From Shigella phage ESh24, in sequence record ON528734: a stretch of 64,000 nt of DNA. One strand, given 5' to 3'. The position numbers were made by a program, and so were the translations under genes. A model generated the notes under the pieces. The model searched no databases and had not been told where the DNA came from. It saw only the letters and a list, made by a program, of their open reading frames with translations. How positions within the stretch are numbered: the first letter of the stretch is position 1; every line of letters begins with the position of its first letter. This document shows positions 2,706-28,996 of this stretch, piece by piece.

Positions 2706-3361
2706 GCTATTCTCTCAAAATAATAAAATACCGTAGGTTGTGTGTGACTATCTAGCGTAACAGTTTGCGCACCTAATAATTGCCAAGTTCCGTATCCAGG
2801 TTTAGAAGGAGAAATTATTTCTTGTTTGAAAGTAATTCCTTTATCAGAGTATTGTTCTAAGATATGTTCTTGGTTATCTAAATACTTAACTTGTATTTTA
2901 TTTCCTATGGTAGGATGGTCTTCAAATGAATCAATTGCAATAAATTTTGCAACCATTTCCTGCAGAGCTGTTCTAACGGCACTGGTAAATTCGATTGAAG
3001 TCATTCCATTAGTAGCTTTAACAGGAATGCCAAACATATTAACAATAACTGGGTCACCTGGTTTGGCTGAAGTATCAGTAACAGTTCCTTCAAATGACCA
3101 ATAGTCTGTTTGCTGCACGCCAGTAGGAGATACGCCACTTATATTAACTAATACAGCTCCAACCTGTTGCTCTGCCATATTTCTAACATCATTGATAGCA
3201 GATTCTACATTTGGGTCATAAAAACCTTTTGCTATTTGTGAAATTGTTACAGCGCCTACTGGCTGATTATTCATAACCGAAATATCATTTTTCTTAGTTC
3301 TAAAACCAAGAAAATCTGCTAAGCGGGAAATAACTCCCGCTTTATTATTAAGTAAACTCAT
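2702..3361 (-). CDS. 11: baseplate wedge / short tail fiber attachment protein
   Basis: Start set at [20 protein letters not shown] (219 aa, as T4 gp11); start ATG overlaps gene 10 stop (TAATG); six-frame ORF extends 6 codons upstream. Confidence 0.85.
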
Positions 3362-5166
3362 TATGCAATCCTTATCCAACGGTATACAGTAATAGACGGT
3401 TGAATATTACTAATATTAGCAGGAGGAGTATGTGAAGAGTTTGTTGTTGCATAATCTTCACGATATTTTGTATATATAGGACCAGTTTCATCTGGGTCAT
3501 ATTGGCAACCTCCAATAATAACCGATCCATTTTCGTCTTCAATTAAAACTCTTTCGTCGGTTTTAGTCGCAGGAAGATTTGCGTTTTCAAGTGTCACCGT
3601 TGTTGTTCCAACCGTTCCACCGGCAGTATGTGAAGGATTTCCGCTAGAATCTAAATCATTATTGTTTAAAGCAAAGTTTGGATCCGTAACATCATCATTC
3701 CATCCTACTAAAACTTGTCCTTTACCAAATAATTTCCATGAACCAAATCCCATATAAGTCACCGGATTATTTGGGTTTATAGCATTTTCATAAATTGAAC
3801 CAACAGGATAAATGCTGTCGAAAATAGATGATATTGAATTATACGTTCTAGTATAAGAATCAACTTTTTCAACATTTGGCCAACCGATTTTATCAAAATC
3901 TGTTAAGGCCACATCACCAGTAACTTCAGTAGATGATCCTTTACTAACATAACGGTCATCAGTCAATTCAATGATGTCATCTTTTTCTAAAAGAGTTCCT
4001 AAATCATTATTGAACCATGTTATAACGATTATATCACCTGATTCAAATTTTCTATCAAATAAAAGACTGATCGGTTTTCCATCTTCATATTCTATAGAAT
4101 AATCTGTGTTTGATTCTTTCCATTCACCGCCAAGAGATATACATCCTTCTTGCGTATCTGAATTAGCGCCTTCACATAAAAACAGAGGATATCCGGCTGT
4201 TCCAGCTTGTTGTTGTAAAATTCCATTAAAACGAACTTCAAGAGAGTTAGGATTAATAGGTTCACCAGGAATTAATCCAAAGGCAGAAAATGGAATTGAT
4301 TTCATCGTCGATAAATTAGTAACATAAATGCTTCCTTCTAAAGAAGTCTTTGATGTTAATTTTGAATCTAATACTTTTATTTGACGTCTTGTATATGAAC
4401 TTCTCCACTGCGATACACCATCCATAAATGTTTCAATTTGAACAGTGTCACCAACATTACAAGGCTGTCTTAATCTAATATTAAATCCATCAAGAGGAAT
4501 CAATTCTCCTTCATTTTCCCCAGGAGAGCCAAAGTCACTGTTTTCGCTAAATACATCACCGTAATACAATTCGTTACCACGATGTTTTACTCTGATGTTG
4601 TTGACATTATAACTAGTTCCATTAAAAACATCTAAAAAGTCTGTTTGTCCTTGAACTTCGACTAAAAATTCTTTACGAGCTACATTGCTAATGTCTGAAC
4701 TAATAATTTTGTCAATTTGTTTATTTTTGACATATTCCCAACGACCCGGAGCGCAATAAACTAGCTCTAAATCACTAAATTGAACGTTAATTTCAACCGA
4801 TGACGATGATCCTTTGATAGTATCACCAGAAGCGGCTACTAAAGTAACTGGATTAACATTCCATGTTGCAAATACATCCCTAGCTCTAATTACTTTATTA
4901 TAATCATTAACAGTTCCTTTAGGAAGTTGCAGTGTTACTCTTCCAGACGAAGTATTAATAGCGTATGATTTTCCCCATTCAGCTTTTAACGTTTGCCCAG
5001 ATGAAGCATTATAAGTTTTCCAGGCACCGGCTGAATATGGAACATTACCATCACCAAGTTCATAATAAAGCTCATCAAAGTTTTCATTTATTTTTATACC
5101 ACCTTTACGCAGGTAGTCACCGGTACCATCATCTACAACATTACCGATATTAATATTTTGTTTCAT
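3361..5166 (-). CDS. 10: baseplate wedge protein
   Basis: 601-aa minus ORF; size and synteny match T4 gp10 (602 aa). Confidence 0.9.
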
Positions 5167-20116: not shown

Positions 20117-20189
20117 TGGGAATTAGCCAAGTTGGTAAGGCATAGCACTTTGACTGCTAGATGCAAAGGTTCGAGTCCTTTATTCCCAG
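20117..20189 (+). tRNA. tRNA-Gln (anticodon TTG)
   Basis: Cloverleaf: acceptor tgggaat/attccca, anticodon loop ctTTGac, T-arm ggttcgagtcc; no encoded CCA. Confidence 0.85.
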
Positions 20190-20190
20190 C

Positions 20191-20277
20191 GCGAGAATGG
20201 TCAAATTGGTAAAGGCACAGCACTTAAAATGCTGCGGAATGATTTCCTTGTGGGTTCGAGTCCCACTTCTCGCACCA
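20191..20277 (+). tRNA. tRNA-Leu (anticodon TAA), type II
   Basis: Acceptor gcgagaa/ttctcgc, anticodon loop ctTAAaa, long variable arm, 3' CCA encoded. Confidence 0.85.
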
Positions 20278-20282
20278 AATTT

Positions 20283-20356
<74 letters not shown>

Positions 20357-20402
20357 ATTTATGACTCGTCGTGAGACGCTCAGTTCTTTATTAGGGACTG
20401 AT

Positions 20403-21011
20403 ATGCATTTTTATCTTTATAAAATAACAAATAAAATTAATAATAAAATTTATATTGGTGTGCATTCTACCGAAAATTTAGATGATGGATATATGGGTTC
20501 TGGTAAATTATTAAAAAGAGCCCAAGATAAATATGGTATAGAAAATTTTTCTAAAGAAATATTAGAGTATTTTGACGATAAAGAATCTATGCTTGAAGCC
20601 GAGAAAAATATTGTCACAGAAGAGTTTTTAAATAGACCAGATGTGTATAATTTAAAACTTGGAGGTGAAGGTGGATGGGATCATATAAATAATTATCCTA
20701 TGACAGATCAGCAACGCGAATTAATTTCATTGGGTGTTAAAAAGGCACATTCTAATGGAAAATTAAAAGGATGGTCTTCAAATGGATTAATGAAGAATGG
20801 CTTTGCTGGTAAAACTCATTCTCAAGAAGCTAAACGTAAAATAGCAAAAGCAAACGAAGCAAAAGTTTCTGTGGATGAAAGAAAAAGAAGAATAGAAATT
20901 TCTAAATTATATGATTTTTCTAAACGTGGCGAATTGTCTAAATATGCTAAGCATATTGGCGTAAGTCATACTCAAGCAAAAAGAATTCTAAATCAAATTA
21001 ACAATATATAA
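20403..21011 (+). CDS. segB: GIY-YIG homing endonuclease in the tRNA cluster
   Basis: GIY-YIG motif FYLYKITNKINNKIYIGVHSTENLDDGYMGSGKLLKRA; start ATG 20403 (RBS aggga), alternative ATG 20361. Confidence 0.8.
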   Translation: MHFYLYKITNKINNKIYIGVHSTENLDDGYMGSGKLLKRAQDKYGIENFSKEILEYFDDKESMLEAEKNIVTEEFLNRPDVYNLKLGGEGGWDHINNYPMTDQQRELISLGVKKAHSNGKLKGWSSNGLMKNGFAGKTHSQEAKRKIAKANEAKVSVDERKRRIEISKLYDFSKRGELSKYAKHIGVSHTQAKRILNQINNI

Positions 21012-21017
21012 ATATTT

Positions 21018-21107
21018 GGAGGCGTGGCAGAGTGGTTTAATGCACCGGTCTTGAAAATCGGCAGTCGCTCCGGCGACTCATAGGTTCAAATCCTATCGCC
21101 TCCGCCA
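21018..21107 (+). tRNA. tRNA-Ser (anticodon TGA), type II
   Basis: Acceptor ggaggcg/cgcctcc, anticodon loop cTTGAaa, long variable arm, CCA encoded. Confidence 0.85.
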
Positions 21108-21112
21108 GTTTT

Positions 21113-21188
21113 GCTGATTTAGCTTAGTAGGTAGAGCAACTCACTTGTAATGAGAAGGTCGGCGGTTCGATTCCGTCAATCAGCACCA
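21113..21188 (+). tRNA. tRNA-Thr (anticodon TGT)
   Basis: Acceptor gctgatt/aatcagc, anticodon loop cTTGTaa, T-arm ggttcgattcc, CCA encoded. Confidence 0.85.
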
Positions 21189-21189
21189 A

Positions 21190-21264
21190 GGCCCTGTAGC
21201 TGGAAGGTTCAAGCAAGCGACTCATAATCGCCAGATGGTGGTTCAATTCCACCCAGGGCCACCA
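21190..21264 (+). tRNA. tRNA with anticodon CAT (Ile2 or Met; Ile by position in T4)
   Basis: Acceptor ggccctg/cagggcc, anticodon loop ctCATaa, T-arm ggttcaattcc, CCA encoded. Confidence 0.8.
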
Positions 21265-21276
21265 AATTATGAATTA

Positions 21277-21363
21277 GGGGAGTTATCCCGTAGAGGTAGC
21301 GGTGTGGACTGTAAATCCATTGTCATTGCGACTCGGGTGGTTCGACTCCATCACTCCCCACCA
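21277..21363 (+). tRNA. tRNA-Tyr (anticodon GTA), type II
   Basis: Acceptor ggggagt/actcccc, anticodon stem-loop gtgga-ctGTAaa-tccat, long variable arm, T-arm ggtgg-ttcgact-ccatc, CCA encoded. Confidence 0.75.
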
Positions 21364-21367
21364 ATTT

Positions 21368-21442
21368 GGATGTGTAGCTCAATGGCAGAGCGATCGCCTG
21401 TTAAGCGATTGGTTATAGGTTCGAATCCTATCACGTCCGCCA
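21368..21442 (+). tRNA. tRNA-Asn (anticodon GTT)
   Basis: Acceptor ggatgtg/cacgtcc, anticodon stem-loop atcgc-ctGTTaa-gcgat, T-arm ggttcgaatcc, CCA encoded. Confidence 0.8.
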
Positions 21443-21446
21443 AATA

Positions 21447-21522
21447 CGAGGCATAGCTCAGAAGGAAGAGCAAGGACCTTCTAAGTCCTAGGTCGTAGGT
21501 TCGATCCCTACTGCCTCGACCA
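21447..21522 (+). tRNA. tRNA-Arg (anticodon TCT)
   Basis: Acceptor cgaggca/tgcctcg, anticodon stem-loop aggac-cTTCTaa-gtcct, T-arm ggttcgatccc, CCA encoded. Confidence 0.85.
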
Positions 21523-21538
21523 ATTAAGTGAGGAAAAT

Positions 21539-21889
21539 ATGAAAGGTAATGTTTATTTAGTAGTTCACGATTTAACATTTTATTTTAATCACAATGACAC
21601 TGTTATTTCTGAACGTGTAATTAATTTGCTTTATCAACACGCGGATTATGTTTATGTCGAAAACGAATATGGTCATTGGCAATTTCTCAAAAATCGTTCA
21701 TTTGGCTTAGATGGTTACGAATACTTTGAACGTAAAGACCTTTTAGATAAAATTCCGTTATCTACGCAATATCAAAATCACGAGTCTTTATATAAATGCC
21801 GTCCAATTCGAAATGCTGAATCTGCGTATGAAGCAATTGATTTATGGCGTAAACGTCGTGAACAGATTGATGCTTTAAAAGAATATTAA
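21539..21889 (+). CDS. hypothetical protein
   Basis: 116-aa ORF with strong RBS (gtgaggaaaat ATG) immediately after tRNA-Arg. Confidence 0.65.
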   Translation: MKGNVYLVVHDLTFYFNHNDTVISERVINLLYQHADYVYVENEYGHWQFLKNRSFGLDGYEYFERKDLLDKIPLSTQYQNHESLYKCRPIRNAESAYEAIDLWRKRREQIDALKEY

Positions 21890-21894
21890 GAAAC

Positions 21895-22230
21895 CGGGTC
21901 GCTACCGGTAAGTCGTCGGACTGATGTTCCCTGGGTAAGGAATCGTGTTAATAAATCTTTATGATTTGTTGATGCCCTCTTACATCACAGCAGAAACGGC
22001 GCACCGAATTATCGATTCGAGGAAATATCTTTGCCGTAAGCCGAGTAGCGTTTTTGACGGAACGTTCGGATATGGTCGAGATATGGCCTTTTAAAAAAAT
22101 ATTGAGTAGCGTCAACTGCTTAATAACCGGGTTCGAATCCCGGCGTTTCGTACAAACACTTGCCTTAGCAGGTGGAACCCCGACAAGGTTGCCGCAAGGC
22201 TTAGCCCCGACCGAAAGGTTGGGGCTTTTT
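21895..22230 (+). ncRNA. candidate stable structured RNA(s), possibly the counterpart of T4 species 1/2 (rnaC/rnaD) RNAs
   Basis: Visibly more GC-rich than flanks; tRNA-like T-arm aaccgggttcgaatcccgg; ends in terminator gccccgacc-gaaa-ggttggggc + TTTTT (22204-22230); no convincing ORF. Confidence 0.4.

Positions 22231-26077: not shown

Positions 26078-26096
<19 letters not shown>
25776..26096 (+). CDS. small membrane protein, paralogue family member 3
   Basis: 106 aa; two TM helices; C-terminal NNFITECRKLQ. Confidence 0.6.
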
Positions 26097-27065
<969 letters not shown>

Positions 27066-27069
27066 AGTT

Positions 27070-27101
27070 GTTTACTTTCTCCTAAAACTGTGATAGTATA
27101 T
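27070..27101 (+). promoter_or_regulatory. early-type promoter with -10 element in hairpin loop
   Basis: gtttac at 27070-27075; -10-like tgatagtatatt within inverted repeat aactgtga/tcacagtt (27086-27109). Confidence 0.45.
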
Positions 27102-27136
27102 TCACAGTTACTAATTAAAATATTTAAAGGAAACAC

Positions 27137-27718
27137 ATGAAAACGTATAAAGAATTTATCGCTGAAGCTTCTGTGGAAAAGGCCAAAGGCATTAATAAAG
27201 ATGAGTGGACCTACCGTTCGGGAAACGGCTTTGACCCTAAAACGGCTCCTATTGAACGGTACTTAGCTACAAAGGCTTCCGACTTTAAAGCCTTCGCTTG
27301 GGAAGGACTTCGTTGGCGTACCGATTTAAATATTGAAGTTGATGGACTTAAATTTGGCCATATTCAGGATGTTGTTGCTAGTAACTTAGACGCAGCTTTT
27401 GTTAAAGCCGACGGTGACCTTCGTCGCTGGAATTTAAAACTGTTCTCTAAACAGAAAGGCCCGGTGTTTGTGCCTAAAGCTGGTAAATGGGTTATTGATA
27501 ATAAATTAGCTAAGGCTGTCAACTACGCTGGTCTTGAATTCGCCAAGCACAAATCATCATGGAGAAGTCTTGATGCAATGGCCTTCCGTAAAGAATTCGC
27601 CGAGGTTATGACTAAAGGCGGCTTTAAGGCAGAACTAGATACCTCTAAAGGTACGTTTAAAGACGCTAATGTTCAGTACGCTTACGCCGTTGCTAATGCA
27701 GCCCGCGGTAATTCTTAA
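27137..27718 (+). CDS. ipIII: internal protein III-like (capsid-targeting sequence MKTYKEFIAE-A)
   Basis: 193 aa (T4 IPIII is 194 aa); CTS; position adjacent to e. Confidence 0.75.
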   Translation: MKTYKEFIAEASVEKAKGINKDEWTYRSGNGFDPKTAPIERYLATKASDFKAFAWEGLRWRTDLNIEVDGLKFGHIQDVVASNLDAAFVKADGDLRRWNLKLFSKQKGPVFVPKAGKWVIDNKLAKAVNYAGLEFAKHKSSWRSLDAMAFRKEFAEVMTKGGFKAELDTSKGTFKDANVQYAYAVANAARGNS

Positions 27719-27734
27719 TAAAGCCGAGTTCGAA

Positions 27735-27800
27735 CCTGGTAATTGATAAATACAGAAACGGGCAATTCATGTGTGTGAATTGCCTCAAACTTAAAGAATA
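27735..27800. repeat. intergenic direct repeat, copy 1 (core AAATACAGAAACGGGCAATTCATG), contains palindrome ggcaattca…tgaattgcc
   Basis: Second copy at 28360-28450; a partial third (aaatacagaaaacgg) at about 23421-23435. Confidence 0.6.
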
Positions 27801-27826
27801 AAACTATTTACATTTAAAGGAAACAC

Positions 27827-28300
27827 ATGAAAACATATCAAGAATTTATTACTGAAGCAGCTATTAATTCTCAAATTATTGCTGAATCTTTTACTGATCT
27901 TTTGAAATTTAAAAAAGGACAGAAAATCACTGCTGTATTGGATGATGGTACAGAAGTTGAGATGGATGTGCAAGGATATAATTATGCAGTAGATGGAAAA
28001 CTGTATAATAAATCTCATGCTAAATTTGATTCATTTGACGACTTTGTTAATACAGTTGAAGATGAAAAAACTCGTCGATCCATTGCAACTGGTGATGCTA
28101 AGGTTCTTATGGCACATGGTCATGAACGCATTCGCGCTAAACAGAATAAAATGGGTGAAGATAATTTTGCATTAGTCGGTTATCAATCTGGTAAACAAAC
28201 CTATGGTTATCAGCGTACTGCTACCATGTATAACAAAAATGGTAAAATTGCCTTTGTAAATAGTAAAGGTTCTATTCAGTACGTTAAATCATTCAAATAA
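27827..28300 (+). CDS. internal-protein-like protein with capsid-targeting sequence (MKTYQEFITE-A)
   Basis: 157 aa; canonical CTS; body unlike the 27137 product and longer than T4 IPII (100 aa). Confidence 0.7.
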   Translation: MKTYQEFITEAAINSQIIAESFTDLLKFKKGQKITAVLDDGTEVEMDVQGYNYAVDGKLYNKSHAKFDSFDDFVNTVEDEKTRRSIATGDAKVLMAHGHERIRAKQNKMGEDNFALVGYQSGKQTYGYQRTATMYNKNGKIAFVNSKGSIQYVKSFK

Positions 28301-28359
28301 GCAAATAAGAAATATGGGAACAAACTGGACCTCATGATTCTGTGAGGGATTCCCGCCAA

Positions 28360-28450
28360 CCTGTAATAAGGTCGAGCCCAAGTGCGGTAATGGGTAAATA
28401 CAGAAATGGACAATTCATGCGCCACGGAATGGCCCAAACTTAGAGAGAAT
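28360..28450. repeat. intergenic direct repeat, copy 2 (core AAATACAGAAATGGACAATTCATG)
   Basis: ~80% identical to 27735-27800; together they bracket the 27827 gene. Confidence 0.6.
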
Positions 28451-28453
28451 AAA

Positions 28454-28996
28454 ATGAGAACATTTTTAACTGGTCCTTATCTATCCCTGATGAATGCTTT
28501 TACACACCATTCTGATGCTAGAGTAGAAGAAATTTGTAAGAATGATTATCTTCCACCAATGGAAGATGTGCTCAAACAGTACTGCACACTTCGTATAGAT
28601 GGTGGACGTCAATCCGGTAAATCAATTGCTGTGACTAACTTTGCTGCTAATTGGCTGTATGATGGCGGAACAGTTATTGTTCTTTCTAATACTTCAGCTT
28701 ACGCTAAAATTTCTGCAAATAACATTAAAAAGGAATTTTCGCGTTATTCTAATGATGATATACGTTTTCGTTTATTTACTGATTCTGTCCGTAGTTTTAT
28801 CGGTAATGAAGGTCATAAATTCCGTGGGTTATCGCTTTCTCGTATCTTGTACATAATTGACGAACCTATTAAAGCTCCTGATATGGATAAGATTTACAAT
28901 ATCCATATTAAAACGGTACAACACTGTTGTCGAAGCTATAATGCTGAAACAGGTGAAACAGTTCGTCCTCAATTTTTTGTGATTGGAATGCAATGA
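28454..28996 (+). CDS. small P-loop NTPase
   Basis: 180 aa from ATG 28454 (RBS gagaataaa); Walker A GGRQSGKS, Walker B ILYIIDEP. Confidence 0.65.
   Translation: MRTFLTGPYLSLMNAFTHHSDARVEEICKNDYLPPMEDVLKQYCTLRIDGGRQSGKSIAVTNFAANWLYDGGTVIVLSNTSAYAKISANNIKKEFSRYSNDDIRFRLFTDSVRSFIGNEGHKFRGLSLSRILYIIDEPIKAPDMDKIYNIHIKTVQHCCRSYNAETGETVRPQFFVIGMQ

What the first reader, a model, noticed from the sequence alone, without database searches (positions are those of the whole stretch)
27735..28450. CTS-tagged 157-aa gene bracketed by ~65-90 bp direct repeats (cassette-like module)
The gene at 27827-28300 encodes a protein starting MKTYQEFITE-A whose body differs from the adjacent IPIII-like protein and is longer than T4 IPII (100 aa). 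It is flanked on both sides by intergenic repeats sharing the core GATAAATACAGAAA(C/T)GG(G/A)CAATTCATG (27735-27800 and 28360-28450), and the upstream copy contains a perfect palindrome ggcaattca/tgaattgcc. Direct repeats bracketing a variable gene are the signature of cassette exchange by homologous recombination, as described for the hyperplastic ipI locus of T-even phages.
Basis: seen in the sequence. Interest (0 to 1): 0.72.

Follow-up and report, generated by a model that had tools for sequence, protein, structure and literature searches.

The report
Ip4 gene between module-junction repeats
The flagged gene is the already-annotated T-even phage internal protein Ip4, sitting in a known gene-shuffling hot spot. 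The two "repeats" around it are an intact copy and a decayed partial copy of a strongly conserved, apparently undescribed structured non-coding element that marks the boundary to the next gene block.

Summary
An ~88-nt direct repeat (A 27716-27803, B 28364-28454, ~77% identical) brackets a 157-aa gene with a capsid-targeting leader. Copy A holds a strong hairpin.

The gene is Ip4 (Pfam DUF7412; about 310 phage records), in the mosaic e-to-vs.8 internal-protein locus of Tequatrovirus phages. Between the same flanks, relatives carry ip4, ipII, ipII plus denV, denV plus ip4, or nothing, so the cassette idea holds in general.

The junctions I could map are not in A or B:
- The 47-nt ribosome-site-plus-leader repeat (NiC89 is an exact recombinant there).
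- The 5' edge of block B.
- 4-7-nt microhomologies.

No A-by-B recombinant was found.

Copy B is more than a repeat. It is part of an element with covarying stems (P0, P1, P3) around invariant loops. It is more conserved than the adjacent vs.8 coding sequence and occurs in many Straboviridae genera, in Vequintavirus and in a 45-kb phage. It is absent from Rfam 15, E. coli genomes and 100,000 bacterial genomes.

Copy A is a truncated, diverged copy that my covariance model does not detect. The function of the element is unknown. The cassette part is ordinary; the conserved element is the interesting by-product.

The parts
27070..27112 (+). PeSL-type early promoter plus stem-loop (GTTTAC...TAGTAT with an inverted repeat) upstream of ipIII
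   Evidence: Read in the sequence. Annotated as a T4 early promoter/terminator in SA21RB. The same 43 nt recur after ipII in W143 and JE01.
27122..27168 (+). Internal-protein leader repeat, copy 1: ribosome-binding site plus capsid-targeting sequence of ipIII
   Evidence: the repeat finder family D2, 91% identical to 27812-27858.
27137..27718 (+). ipIII (193 aa internal virion protein)
   Evidence: PHROG 5341, E = 1.6e-117. Collinear with T4 ipIII.
27716..27803 (+). Repeat copy A: a truncated, diverged copy of the vs.8-leader element, fused to the ipIII stop codons
   Evidence: Not detected by covariance model R1 at E <= 10. Present at >=80% identity in about 57 phage records.
27760..27785 (+). 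Hairpin in copy A (9 Watson-Crick pairs plus G-U, loop TGTGTG)
   Evidence: -14 kcal/mol, z = -4.96. The stem is kept in relatives through a G:C to A:T double change. It scores as terminator-like only on the minus strand.
27812..27858 (+). Internal-protein leader repeat, copy 2: ribosome-binding site plus capsid-targeting sequence of ip4; left swap junction
   Evidence: Homology to ipII-carrying relatives stops at 27858. The NiC89 crossover lies within this repeat.
27827..28300 (+). ip4, a 157-aa internal virion protein with N-terminal capsid-targeting sequence MKTYQEFITE|A
   Evidence: Pfam DUF7412, E = 5.7e-96; PHROG 3155, E = 6e-102. Annotated Ip4/ipIV in RB14, Shfl2 and PST. The gene body is in 310 phage records.
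28314..28399 (+). Conserved structured element, 5' domain. P0 28316-20/28350-54; P1 28330-34/28343-47; P3 28355-58/28391-94; P2 28359-62/28369-72 with loop GUAAUA; invariant strand 28373-28390
   Evidence: Covariance model R1 hit of 107.9 bits, the only one in the window. Covariation. Right swap junction at 28311/12.
28364..28454 (+).
   Evidence: Conserved upstream of vs.8 in every Tequatrovirus relative examined.
28417..28435 (+). Second conserved block of the element, ATGYGCCANGGAAYGGCCC
   Evidence: Near-invariant across T4-like genera in alignment A1. Mutated in copy A to form the 3' arm of the hairpin.
28454..28996 (+). vs.8 (180 aa, P-loop protein); true start most likely ATG 28454
   Evidence: PHROG 1488, E = 1.4e-79. 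Protein conservation starts at MRTFLTGPYL / MK(Y/F)LTPIYL in all genera. The upstream frames differ between phages.

Best explanation
**What the pieces are.**
- The 157-aa gene is ip4. It is one of the interchangeable capsid-packaged, injected internal proteins of T-even phages. By analogy with IPI, IPII and IPIII it is probably an anti-defence factor.
- It lies in the mosaic interval between the lysozyme gene e and vs.8.
- Copy B is the 3' two-thirds of a conserved structured non-coding element. In T4-like phages this element marks the boundary between the internal-protein/denV block and the vs.8 operon. Its structure is P0 enclosing hairpin P1, followed by a three-way junction: closing stem P3, and hairpins P2 and P2b with invariant loops.
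- Copy A is a truncated, diverged duplicate of that element joined to the ipIII stop codons. It has lost the invariant core. A few substitutions in the former second conserved block (GGAATGGCC to TGAATTGCC) created a perfect hairpin.

**How the locus changes.**
- Shown: genes in this interval are gained, lost and swapped by phage recombination at short shared junction sequences. These are the 47-nt ribosome-site-plus-leader repeat, PeSL promoter/stem-loops, the edge of the element, and 4-7-nt microhomologies.
- Inferred: such an event placed an ip4-plus-element unit downstream of an ipIII-plus-element unit, which produced the A...B direct repeat.

**What the non-coding parts do.**
- Inferred: the intact element acts as RNA on the + strand. 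Most likely it is a cis-acting processing, stability or regulatory structure at the operon boundary.
- The hairpin in A is at most an mRNA-end or attenuator structure.
For: **Gene identity.**
- Family assignment.
- Roles of IPII and IPIII: bioRxiv 10.1101/2023.04.06.535777 and 10.1101/2022.04.14.488369.

**Mosaic architectures.**

**Junction mapping.**

**Structure of the element.**
- All 5 P0 pairs covary: GGGAA/UUCCC, GGGAG/CUCCC, AAAGG/CCUUU, AAAGC/GCUUU, GAGGG/CCCUC.
- The innermost P3 pair shows AU, UG, UA, CG and GC.
- 91% of cells are paired against 79% in shuffles. 10 of 17 pairs have compensatory changes, reached by 0 of 500 shuffles.
- RNAalifold recovers P0, P2 and P3 and adds a further hairpin, P2b; it does not predict P1.
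- P1 shows a compensatory CCUCA/UGAGG to CCUUA/UAAGG change in MG36 and a paired deletion in Cronus.

**Strand.** G-U pairs favour the + strand.

**Selection.**
- The junction domain is 74-100% identical between phages whose vs.8 is about 60% identical.
- A 1-nt indel in RB69 and Cronus, plus shifting frames, exclude coding.

**Copy A.**
- It is not detected by the model.
- Its invariant-core part is 68% identical to B. Its 3' part is more than 90% identical to B in G4498.

**Independent case.** K65_evo3 has two element copies bracketing ipII.
Against: - The direction of events (insertion or deletion) and the exact origin of A's 5' part are not resolved. It aligns both with the core of B and with the 5' end of the long-form element of IMG26.
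- Much of the covariation reflects a few clade-level switches.
- Alignment A4 was fitted to the model.
- No transcript data were available, so RNA versus single-stranded or double-stranded DNA function is inferred only.
- In phage Ivi the element lies between an intrinsic terminator and a promoter, which sits awkwardly with an RNA role.
- G2133 lacks the 5' half of the element and is a viable phage, so the element is dispensable in culture.
- The function of Ip4 is untested, and its predicted structure was unusable (pLDDT 50.7).
Confidence: 0.7

Rival explanations
1. One reading: A and B are themselves the recombination substrates. Homologous exchange or excision between the two direct repeats moves the gene between them, as proposed for PeSL-flanked ORFs and the ipI locus.
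For: - Different genes lie between A and B in relatives: ip4, ipII, ipII plus denV.
- K65_evo3 has two element copies flanking ipII.
- In dhaeg the element is 100% identical to the window's while its vs.8 is only 60% identical, so a mosaic boundary lies at or near the element.
- PeSL mini-circles are a precedent (PMC2839356).
Against: - The mapped swap junctions lie outside the A/B homology, at 27858 and 28311/12.
- No single-piece match to a synthetic A/B junction appeared among the 40 best-ranked of the 813 matching records.
- A and B share only 77% identity, with a longest exact run of 12 nt.
- A is present in only about 57 records.
- The documented deletions use the leader repeat or microhomologies.
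Confidence: 0.2
2. A and B are repeated expression signals, each serving the gene downstream of it. Either a late-promoter variant (GATAAATA / GGTAAATA) or a hairpin terminator or processing site is duplicated because each cassette carries its own control region.
For: - GATAAATA differs from the T4 late-promoter consensus TATAAATA at one position.
- The hairpin in A is stable and is kept by a compensatory change.
- The region corresponds in position to an early-type -35 (TTTACA) in other genera, matching the PST/T4 PeSL consensus TTTACW (PMC4122927).
Against: - B has GGTAAATA, two mismatches from the consensus. A canonical TATAAATA sits upstream of e instead.
- No sigma-70-type promoter was scored in A or B.
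- The hairpin has no T-run on the + strand and is absent from B.
- SA21RB and PST lack copy A before ip4.
Confidence: 0.1
3. Block B is protein-coding. It is either an N-terminal extension of Vs.8, as annotated in T4 (219 aa), or a 33-aa upstream ORF, as annotated in G4498. The repeat would then reflect coding conservation.
For: - T4 NP_049732 starts inside the element.
- G4498 gp124 covers it.
- An ORF 28342-28443 and an in-frame ATG at 28406 exist in the window.
Against: - The frame joined to vs.8 differs between T4, the window and IMG7.
- RB69 and Cronus have a 1-nt deletion inside the invariant core.
- The substitutions are stem-compensatory rather than synonymous.
- Vs.8 protein conservation starts at the downstream ATG.
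Confidence: 0.04

Closest known systems
Hyperplastic internal-protein loci of T-even phages (Repoila et al. 1994, EMBO J 13:4181; cited from the reference lists of PMC4122927 and PMC2839356, and not readable here)
   Same: Different ORFs carrying the same capsid-targeting leader occupy one locus in different phages, between conserved flanks. The leader sequence itself is a shared recombination target.
   Different: The locus here is e-ipIII-...-vs.8, not ipI. The right-hand flank is a conserved structured non-coding element rather than a gene.
PeSL (promoter-early stem-loop) mobile regulatory cassettes (Arbiol et al. 2010, PMC2839356; Comeau et al. 2014, PMC4122927)
   Same: Short conserved intergenic motifs containing a stem-loop bracket variable ORFs in hyperplastic regions and coincide with indel boundaries. 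A true PeSL sits at 27070-27112. In other genera the element is followed directly by a TTTACA-type -35.
   Different: Copies A and B carry no early-promoter consensus in this phage (TAAATA replaces TTTACA). The intact element is about 120 nt, multi-stem and has invariant loops. It is shared with non-T4 phages and is single-copy per genome in most of them.
Ip4 / IpIV of RB14, RB32, Shfl2 and PST (Pfam DUF7412, PHROG 3155)
   Same: Same protein family, 93-98% nucleotide identity in 310 records, same position next to vs.8.
   Different: None of substance. Only the neighbours differ: ipIII with copy A upstream is a minority arrangement.
Microhomology-mediated deletions and amplifications in T4 (Srikant et al. 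2022, bioRxiv 10.1101/2022.04.14.488369)
   Same: Loss of ipIII-region genes by recombination between short repeats. The natural variants UFV13 (CATT), G2133 (GGTAAA) and NiC89 (23-nt identity within the leader repeat) look like the same process.
   Different: Those were laboratory-evolved deletions. Here the products are fixed in natural isolates.

Membership tests
T4-type internal proteins (capsid-targeted, injected) | N-terminal capsid-targeting sequence (MKTY-EFI-E) ending in the gp21 protease motif (L/I)-x-E | tested here: met
   MKTYQEFITE|AAINS. 91% nucleotide identity to the ipIII leader. M1, K2, F7 and E10 are invariant in 13 homologues.
T4-type internal proteins (capsid-targeted, injected) | Membership of a recognised internal-protein sequence family | tested here: met
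   Pfam DUF7412, 319 bits against a cut-off of 27. PHROG 3155 'internal virion protein'.
T4-type internal proteins (capsid-targeted, injected) | Physically packaged in the head and injected with the DNA | not testable with these tools
   Needs virion proteomics.
PeSL (promoter-early stem-loop) element | Early promoter TTTACW-N17-TAYWAT overlapping or adjacent to the stem-loop | tested here: not met
   Copies A and B have (G/A)TAAATA at the position of TTTACA, and no promoter was scored there. The feature is met by the separate element at 27070-27112.
PeSL (promoter-early stem-loop) element | Stable stem-loop | tested here: met
   Copy A has a -14 kcal/mol hairpin with z = -4.96. Copy B lacks this hairpin at the corresponding position but has the conserved stems P0/P1 upstream.
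PeSL (promoter-early stem-loop) element | Flanks ORFs that differ between close relatives | tested here: met
PeSL (promoter-early stem-loop) element | Recombination between copies yields deletions or mini-circles | tested here: not met
   No A x B junction appeared among the 40 best-ranked of 813 matching records. Mini-circles themselves cannot be tested here.
T4 late promoter | TATAAATA | tested here: not met
   A has GATAAATA (GGTAAATA in G4498 and VEc74). B has GGTAAATA.
Intrinsic (Rho-independent) terminator | G+C-rich hairpin followed by a T-run on the transcribed strand | tested here: not met
   The + strand tail is TCAAACTTAAAG. Only the minus strand scores, with tail CGTTTCTGTA, and there are no minus-strand genes nearby.
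Any Rfam 15 RNA family | Covariance-model match | tested here: not met
   No match at E <= 1 over the element in the window, in pangalan or in Ivi.
Structured cis-acting RNA (generic) | Stems supported by compensatory changes, and loops more conserved than the neighbouring coding sequence | tested here: met
Structured cis-acting RNA (generic) | Transcribed and folded in vivo, with a phenotype on mutation | not testable with these tools
   Needs RNA-seq, structure probing and genetics.

The most novel reading that the evidence does not exclude
The intact element (window 28316-28435) would be a previously undescribed class of structured RNA. It is shared by virulent phages of at least three lineages: many Straboviridae genera, Vequintavirus, and the 45-kb phage Ivi. 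It has an invariant three-way-junction core. It could be a ligand- or protein-binding regulatory RNA, a processing signal or ribozyme, or a host-factor decoy. It would also serve as a conserved recombination linker at which internal-protein (anti-defence) cassettes are exchanged.
Probability: 0.35. Interest if true: 0.75.

Novelty: new variant of a known kind. Interest (0 to 1): 0.5.

Why it matters
Internal proteins are injected with the phage DNA and act as first-line anti-defence factors. IPI and IPII inhibit GmrSD-type restriction, and IPIII is needed on ECOR17. How phages reshuffle these proteins therefore bears on host range and on phage-therapy design.

The locus gives natural, sequence-resolved examples of three recombination routes: the leader repeat, PeSLs and microhomologies.

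The non-coding element at the block boundary is separately interesting:
- It is more conserved than the adjacent gene.
- It spans unrelated phage groups.
- It is currently mis-annotated as coding in T4 itself.

If it is a functional RNA, it adds a widespread, testable phage RNA motif in the best-studied phage.

Tried and rejected
- **Rfam scans** of the window region and of the pangalan and Ivi loci found nothing at the element.
- **Host origin.** There was no match in 5,426 E. coli genomes or in 100,044 bacterial and archaeal genomes.
- **rRNA mimicry.** The motif order GUAAUA loop, GGUCGAG, GCGG(U)AA recalls 23S rRNA 1093-1130. Local alignment to 16S, 23S and 5S scored no better than shuffles (25 against 25.0 +/- 2.8). 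Rejected as unsupported.
- **Small-ORF or Vs.8-extension reading.** Rejected because of frame shifts and an indel.
- **Late-promoter reading.** The consensus is not met.
- **Plus-strand terminator reading.** There is no T-run.
- **A consistent pseudoknot** between the second conserved block and the loops. It was seen only in Ivi, by eye.
- **Ip4 structure.** The AlphaFold2 model was poor (pLDDT 50.7), so no fold search was run. The PDB sequence search gave only weak, irrelevant hits.
- **Neighbouring genes of the element** in pangalan and Ivi all belong to PHROGs of unknown function.
- **Literature searches** for the core sequence and for T4 transcript maps of this spacer found nothing relevant.
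- **Repoila 1994** could not be read.

Full report
**Observation.** The window is a Tequatrovirus (T4-like) genome segment. The local gene order on the + strand is:
- nudE (26078-26533)
- e, lysozyme (26571-27065)
- ipIII (27137-27718)
- the flagged 157-aa ORF (27827-28300)
- vs.8, vs.7 and vs.6/GrcA

The direct repeat is real.
- The repeat finder pairs 27716-27771 with 28364-28419 (77%) and 27781-27797 with 28430-28446.
- A gapped local alignment scores 64, against 17 +/- 2.3 for shuffles.
- The 25-nt core occurs twice in 64 kb, with none expected.
- Copy A contains a hairpin of 9 Watson-Crick pairs plus one G-U (-14 kcal/mol, z = -4.96). The matching part of copy B does not fold this way.
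- A second repeat, 91% identical over 47 nt, covers the ribosome-binding site and capsid-targeting leader of ipIII and of the flagged gene.

**The gene.** It is Ip4.
- It is a full-length match to Pfam DUF7412 (E = 5.7e-96) and PHROG 3155 'internal virion protein'.
- It is annotated Ip4/ipIV in RB14, Shfl2 and PST.
- Its body is present at 90-99% identity in 310 of the roughly 900 phage records that match this locus.
- The protein family is small, with 14 clusters, all T4-like.
- AlphaFold2 gave an unusable model (pLDDT 50.7), and there is no solved relative.
- By analogy it is an injected anti-defence protein. IPII inhibits fused GmrSD (bioRxiv 10.1101/2023.04.06.535777). IPIII is needed on ECOR17 (bioRxiv 10.1101/2022.04.14.488369).

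**The locus is a mosaic.** The architectures read from annotated relatives are:

| Phage | Order between e and vs.8 |
|---|---|
| Window, ECML-134, Shfl2 | e - ipIII - A - ip4 - B - vs.8 |
| SA21RB, PST | e - ipIII - (12-nt spacer, no A) - ip4 - B |
| G4498, ECO07P2, VEc74 | extra internal-protein genes, then ipIII - A - ip4 - B |
| wV7 | e - denV - ip4 - B |
| NiC89 | e - ip4 - B |
| T4 | e - ipIII - PeSL - ipII - PeSL - denV - B |
| JE01 | e - ipIII - A - ipII - PeSL - denV - B |
| W143 | ipIII - A - ipII - PeSL - denV remnant - B |
| G2133 | ipIII - ipII - PeSL - 3' half of B only |
| UFV13, Lutter | ipIII - short remnant of the ip4 3' end - B |

**Where the junctions are.**
- Against ipII-carrying phages, homology ends at 27858 (the end of the leader) and resumes at 28311/12, just after the ip4 stop. 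Both points lie outside the A/B homology.
- NiC89 has the ipIII-type upstream leader and the ip4 body. Its crossover lies inside the 23-nt identical stretch of the leader repeat, and the ~690-nt difference equals the repeat spacing.
- UFV13 joins ...TATTTACATT to CAAATAA... of the ip4 3' end, through CATT microhomology.
- G2133 joins the denV start GAGGTAAAATG to TGGGTAAATAC inside B, through GGTAAA.
- A synthetic ipIII-A/B-vs.8 junction query matched 813 records. None of the 40 best-ranked was a single-piece match.
- Copy A at 80% identity or more is in about 57 records. B-like sequence is in more than 1000.
- The demonstrated substrates are therefore the leader repeat, the PeSLs and microhomologies. 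The A/B pair is not among them.

**Copy B is part of a conserved element.**
- A 156-nt query of the ip4-vs.8 spacer matched 1118 phage records. These include genera far from T4, and the central ~45 nt also matched Vequintavirus phages and the 45-kb phage Ivi at 86-95%.
- The 30-nt core CTGTAAYAAGGTCGAGCNMAA(N)TGCGGTAA was found in 14 IMG/VR contigs and 15 metagenome contigs.
- It was not found in E. coli genomes or in 100,044 bacterial and archaeal genomes.
- It matches no Rfam 15 family.
- In most non-Tequatrovirus T4-like phages examined the order is ipIII (or another internal-protein gene or denV) - element - vs.8. This is probably the ancestral arrangement.

**Structure of the element.**
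- A 5-bp stem P0 begins within a few nucleotides of the upstream stop codon. It encloses hairpin P1.
- P0 is followed directly by stem P3, which closes a junction with two parts. One is the invariant hairpin P2 (ACCU-GUAAUA-AGGU). The other is the invariant strand CGAGCCCAAGUGCGGUAA, which RNAalifold folds as a second hairpin.
- All five P0 pairs show two-sided changes, across five distinct helix sequences.
- The innermost P3 pair occurs as AU, UG, UA, CG and GC.
- Virsaitis27 swaps CC/GG for GG/CC in P3.
- In P1, MG36 has CCUUA/UAAGG in place of CCUCA/UGAGG, and Cronus has a paired deletion.
- Overall, 91% of cells pair against 79% in shuffles. 10 of 17 pairs carry compensatory changes, reached by 0 of 500 shuffles. 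Sliding the partners by one column drops pairing to 55-63%.
- G-U pairs favour the + strand.
- The junction domain is 74-100% identical between the window and phages whose vs.8 is only about 60% identical. In dhaeg the figures are 100% against 60%.
- A 1-nt deletion in the core of RB69 and Cronus, together with shifting reading frames, rules out coding. The N-terminal 39 residues of the T4 Vs.8 annotation and the 33-aa ORF of G4498 are therefore probably annotation artefacts.

**Copy A.**
- The covariance model built from the element finds one hit in the window, 28314-28399 at 107.9 bits. It does not find copy A even at E <= 10.
- A begins at the ipIII stop codons TAATAA, which align with the GUAAUAAGG of P2.
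- Its counterpart of the invariant core is only 68% identical to B. Its 3' part is more than 90% identical to the Tequatrovirus-specific 3' part of B (G4498 copy A against B).
- A's 5' 22 nt also resemble the 5' end of the long-form element (IMG26: TAATAAAGCCGAACACGACCT). A is therefore either a 5'-truncated copy or an internally deleted one. I could not decide between these.
- The hairpin arose by changing the second conserved block, GGAATGGCC, to TGAATTGCC.
- Among relatives the stem is kept through a G:C to A:T double change.
- The hairpin has no T-run on the + strand. The terminator scan picks it up only on the minus strand, where there are no genes.

The motif (G/A)TAAATACAG aligns with GGTTTACATAG in other genera, which is an early-promoter-type -35 (TTTACW, PMC4122927). 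In pangalan and Ivi the element is likewise followed by a TTGACA promoter. In Tequatrovirus this -35 has decayed. In Ivi the element lies between an intrinsic terminator and that promoter. This is hard to fit to a simple 5'-UTR role and keeps a DNA-level function possible.

**An independent two-copy case.** In K65_evo3, a long-form element and a short-form element bracket an ipII homologue plus a PeSL. Together with dhaeg, this shows that the element is a mosaic boundary at which internal-protein units are joined.

**Verdict.**
It is wrong on the role of the two repeats and on the novelty of the gene.
- The gene and the shuffling are known biology (Repoila 1994; Arbiol 2010; Comeau 2014).
- The unexpected result is the conserved, covarying, apparently unannotated element. 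Its function remains unknown.
- My best guess is a cis-acting RNA at the operon boundary. The guess rests on stem covariation and on G-U pairs that favour the + strand; no transcript data were available.

Noticed in passing
window 28314-28435; T4 NC_000866 64808-64912 (L004 2331-2441, minus strand): The T4 reference annotation of Vs.8 (219 aa) and G4498 gp124 (33 aa) both read the conserved non-coding element as protein. Frames and indels across phages indicate that the real vs.8 start is the downstream ATG (window 28454).
   Followed up: yes
L057 (Klebsiella phage K65_evo3, PQ569696.1) 2489-2555 and 2992-3077: Two copies of the element, one long-form and one short-form with a mutated core (GTGTGGCAA), bracket an ipII homologue plus a PeSL. 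An Ip4 homologue lies upstream.
   Followed up: partly
L019 (pangalan) 1970-2048; L034; L049; L020 (Ivi) 1468-1541; L048: The same element occurs in Vequintavirus phages, upstream of a TTGACA-N17-TAAAAT promoter and near the tRNA cluster. It also occurs in the unclassified 45-kb phage Ivi, between an intrinsic terminator and a TTGACA promoter. All neighbouring genes are of unknown function.
   Followed up: partly
L049 (MG065682.1): The record named 'Campylobacter phage A112b' (UNVERIFIED) is classified as, and looks like, a Vequintavirus. The 18 'Campylobacter' hits probably do not extend the host range of the element.
   Followed up: no
window 20117-22153: A cluster of 10 predicted tRNA genes: Gln, Leu, Gly, Ser, Thr, Met(CAT), Tyr, Asn, Arg, and an odd 97-nt 'tRNA-Phe' with anticodon AAA at 22057-22153. 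From memory this differs from the T4 set, and the last call looks doubtful.
   Followed up: no
L005 (W143) 3525-3600; L015 (G2133) 2085-2100: W143 keeps only a remnant of denV, with the start fused to the 3' end. G2133 lost denV and the 5' half of the element through a GGTAAA microhomology. These are natural examples of the short-homology deletions seen in laboratory T4 evolution.
   Followed up: yes
window 26528-26556: TATAAATA (followed by a partial second copy, TATAAAT) lies just upstream of gene e. It was annotated as a late promoter in SA21RB. It is probably the late promoter that also serves ipIII and ip4.
   Followed up: no
L006 (JE01) 2585-2615: The 3' end of denV in JE01 (likewise L009, L040, L045) differs from T4. 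It carries an internal-protein-leader-like string (AATATTTACATTTAAATAA) just before the element, which suggests a past recombination with an internal-protein cassette inside denV.
   Followed up: no
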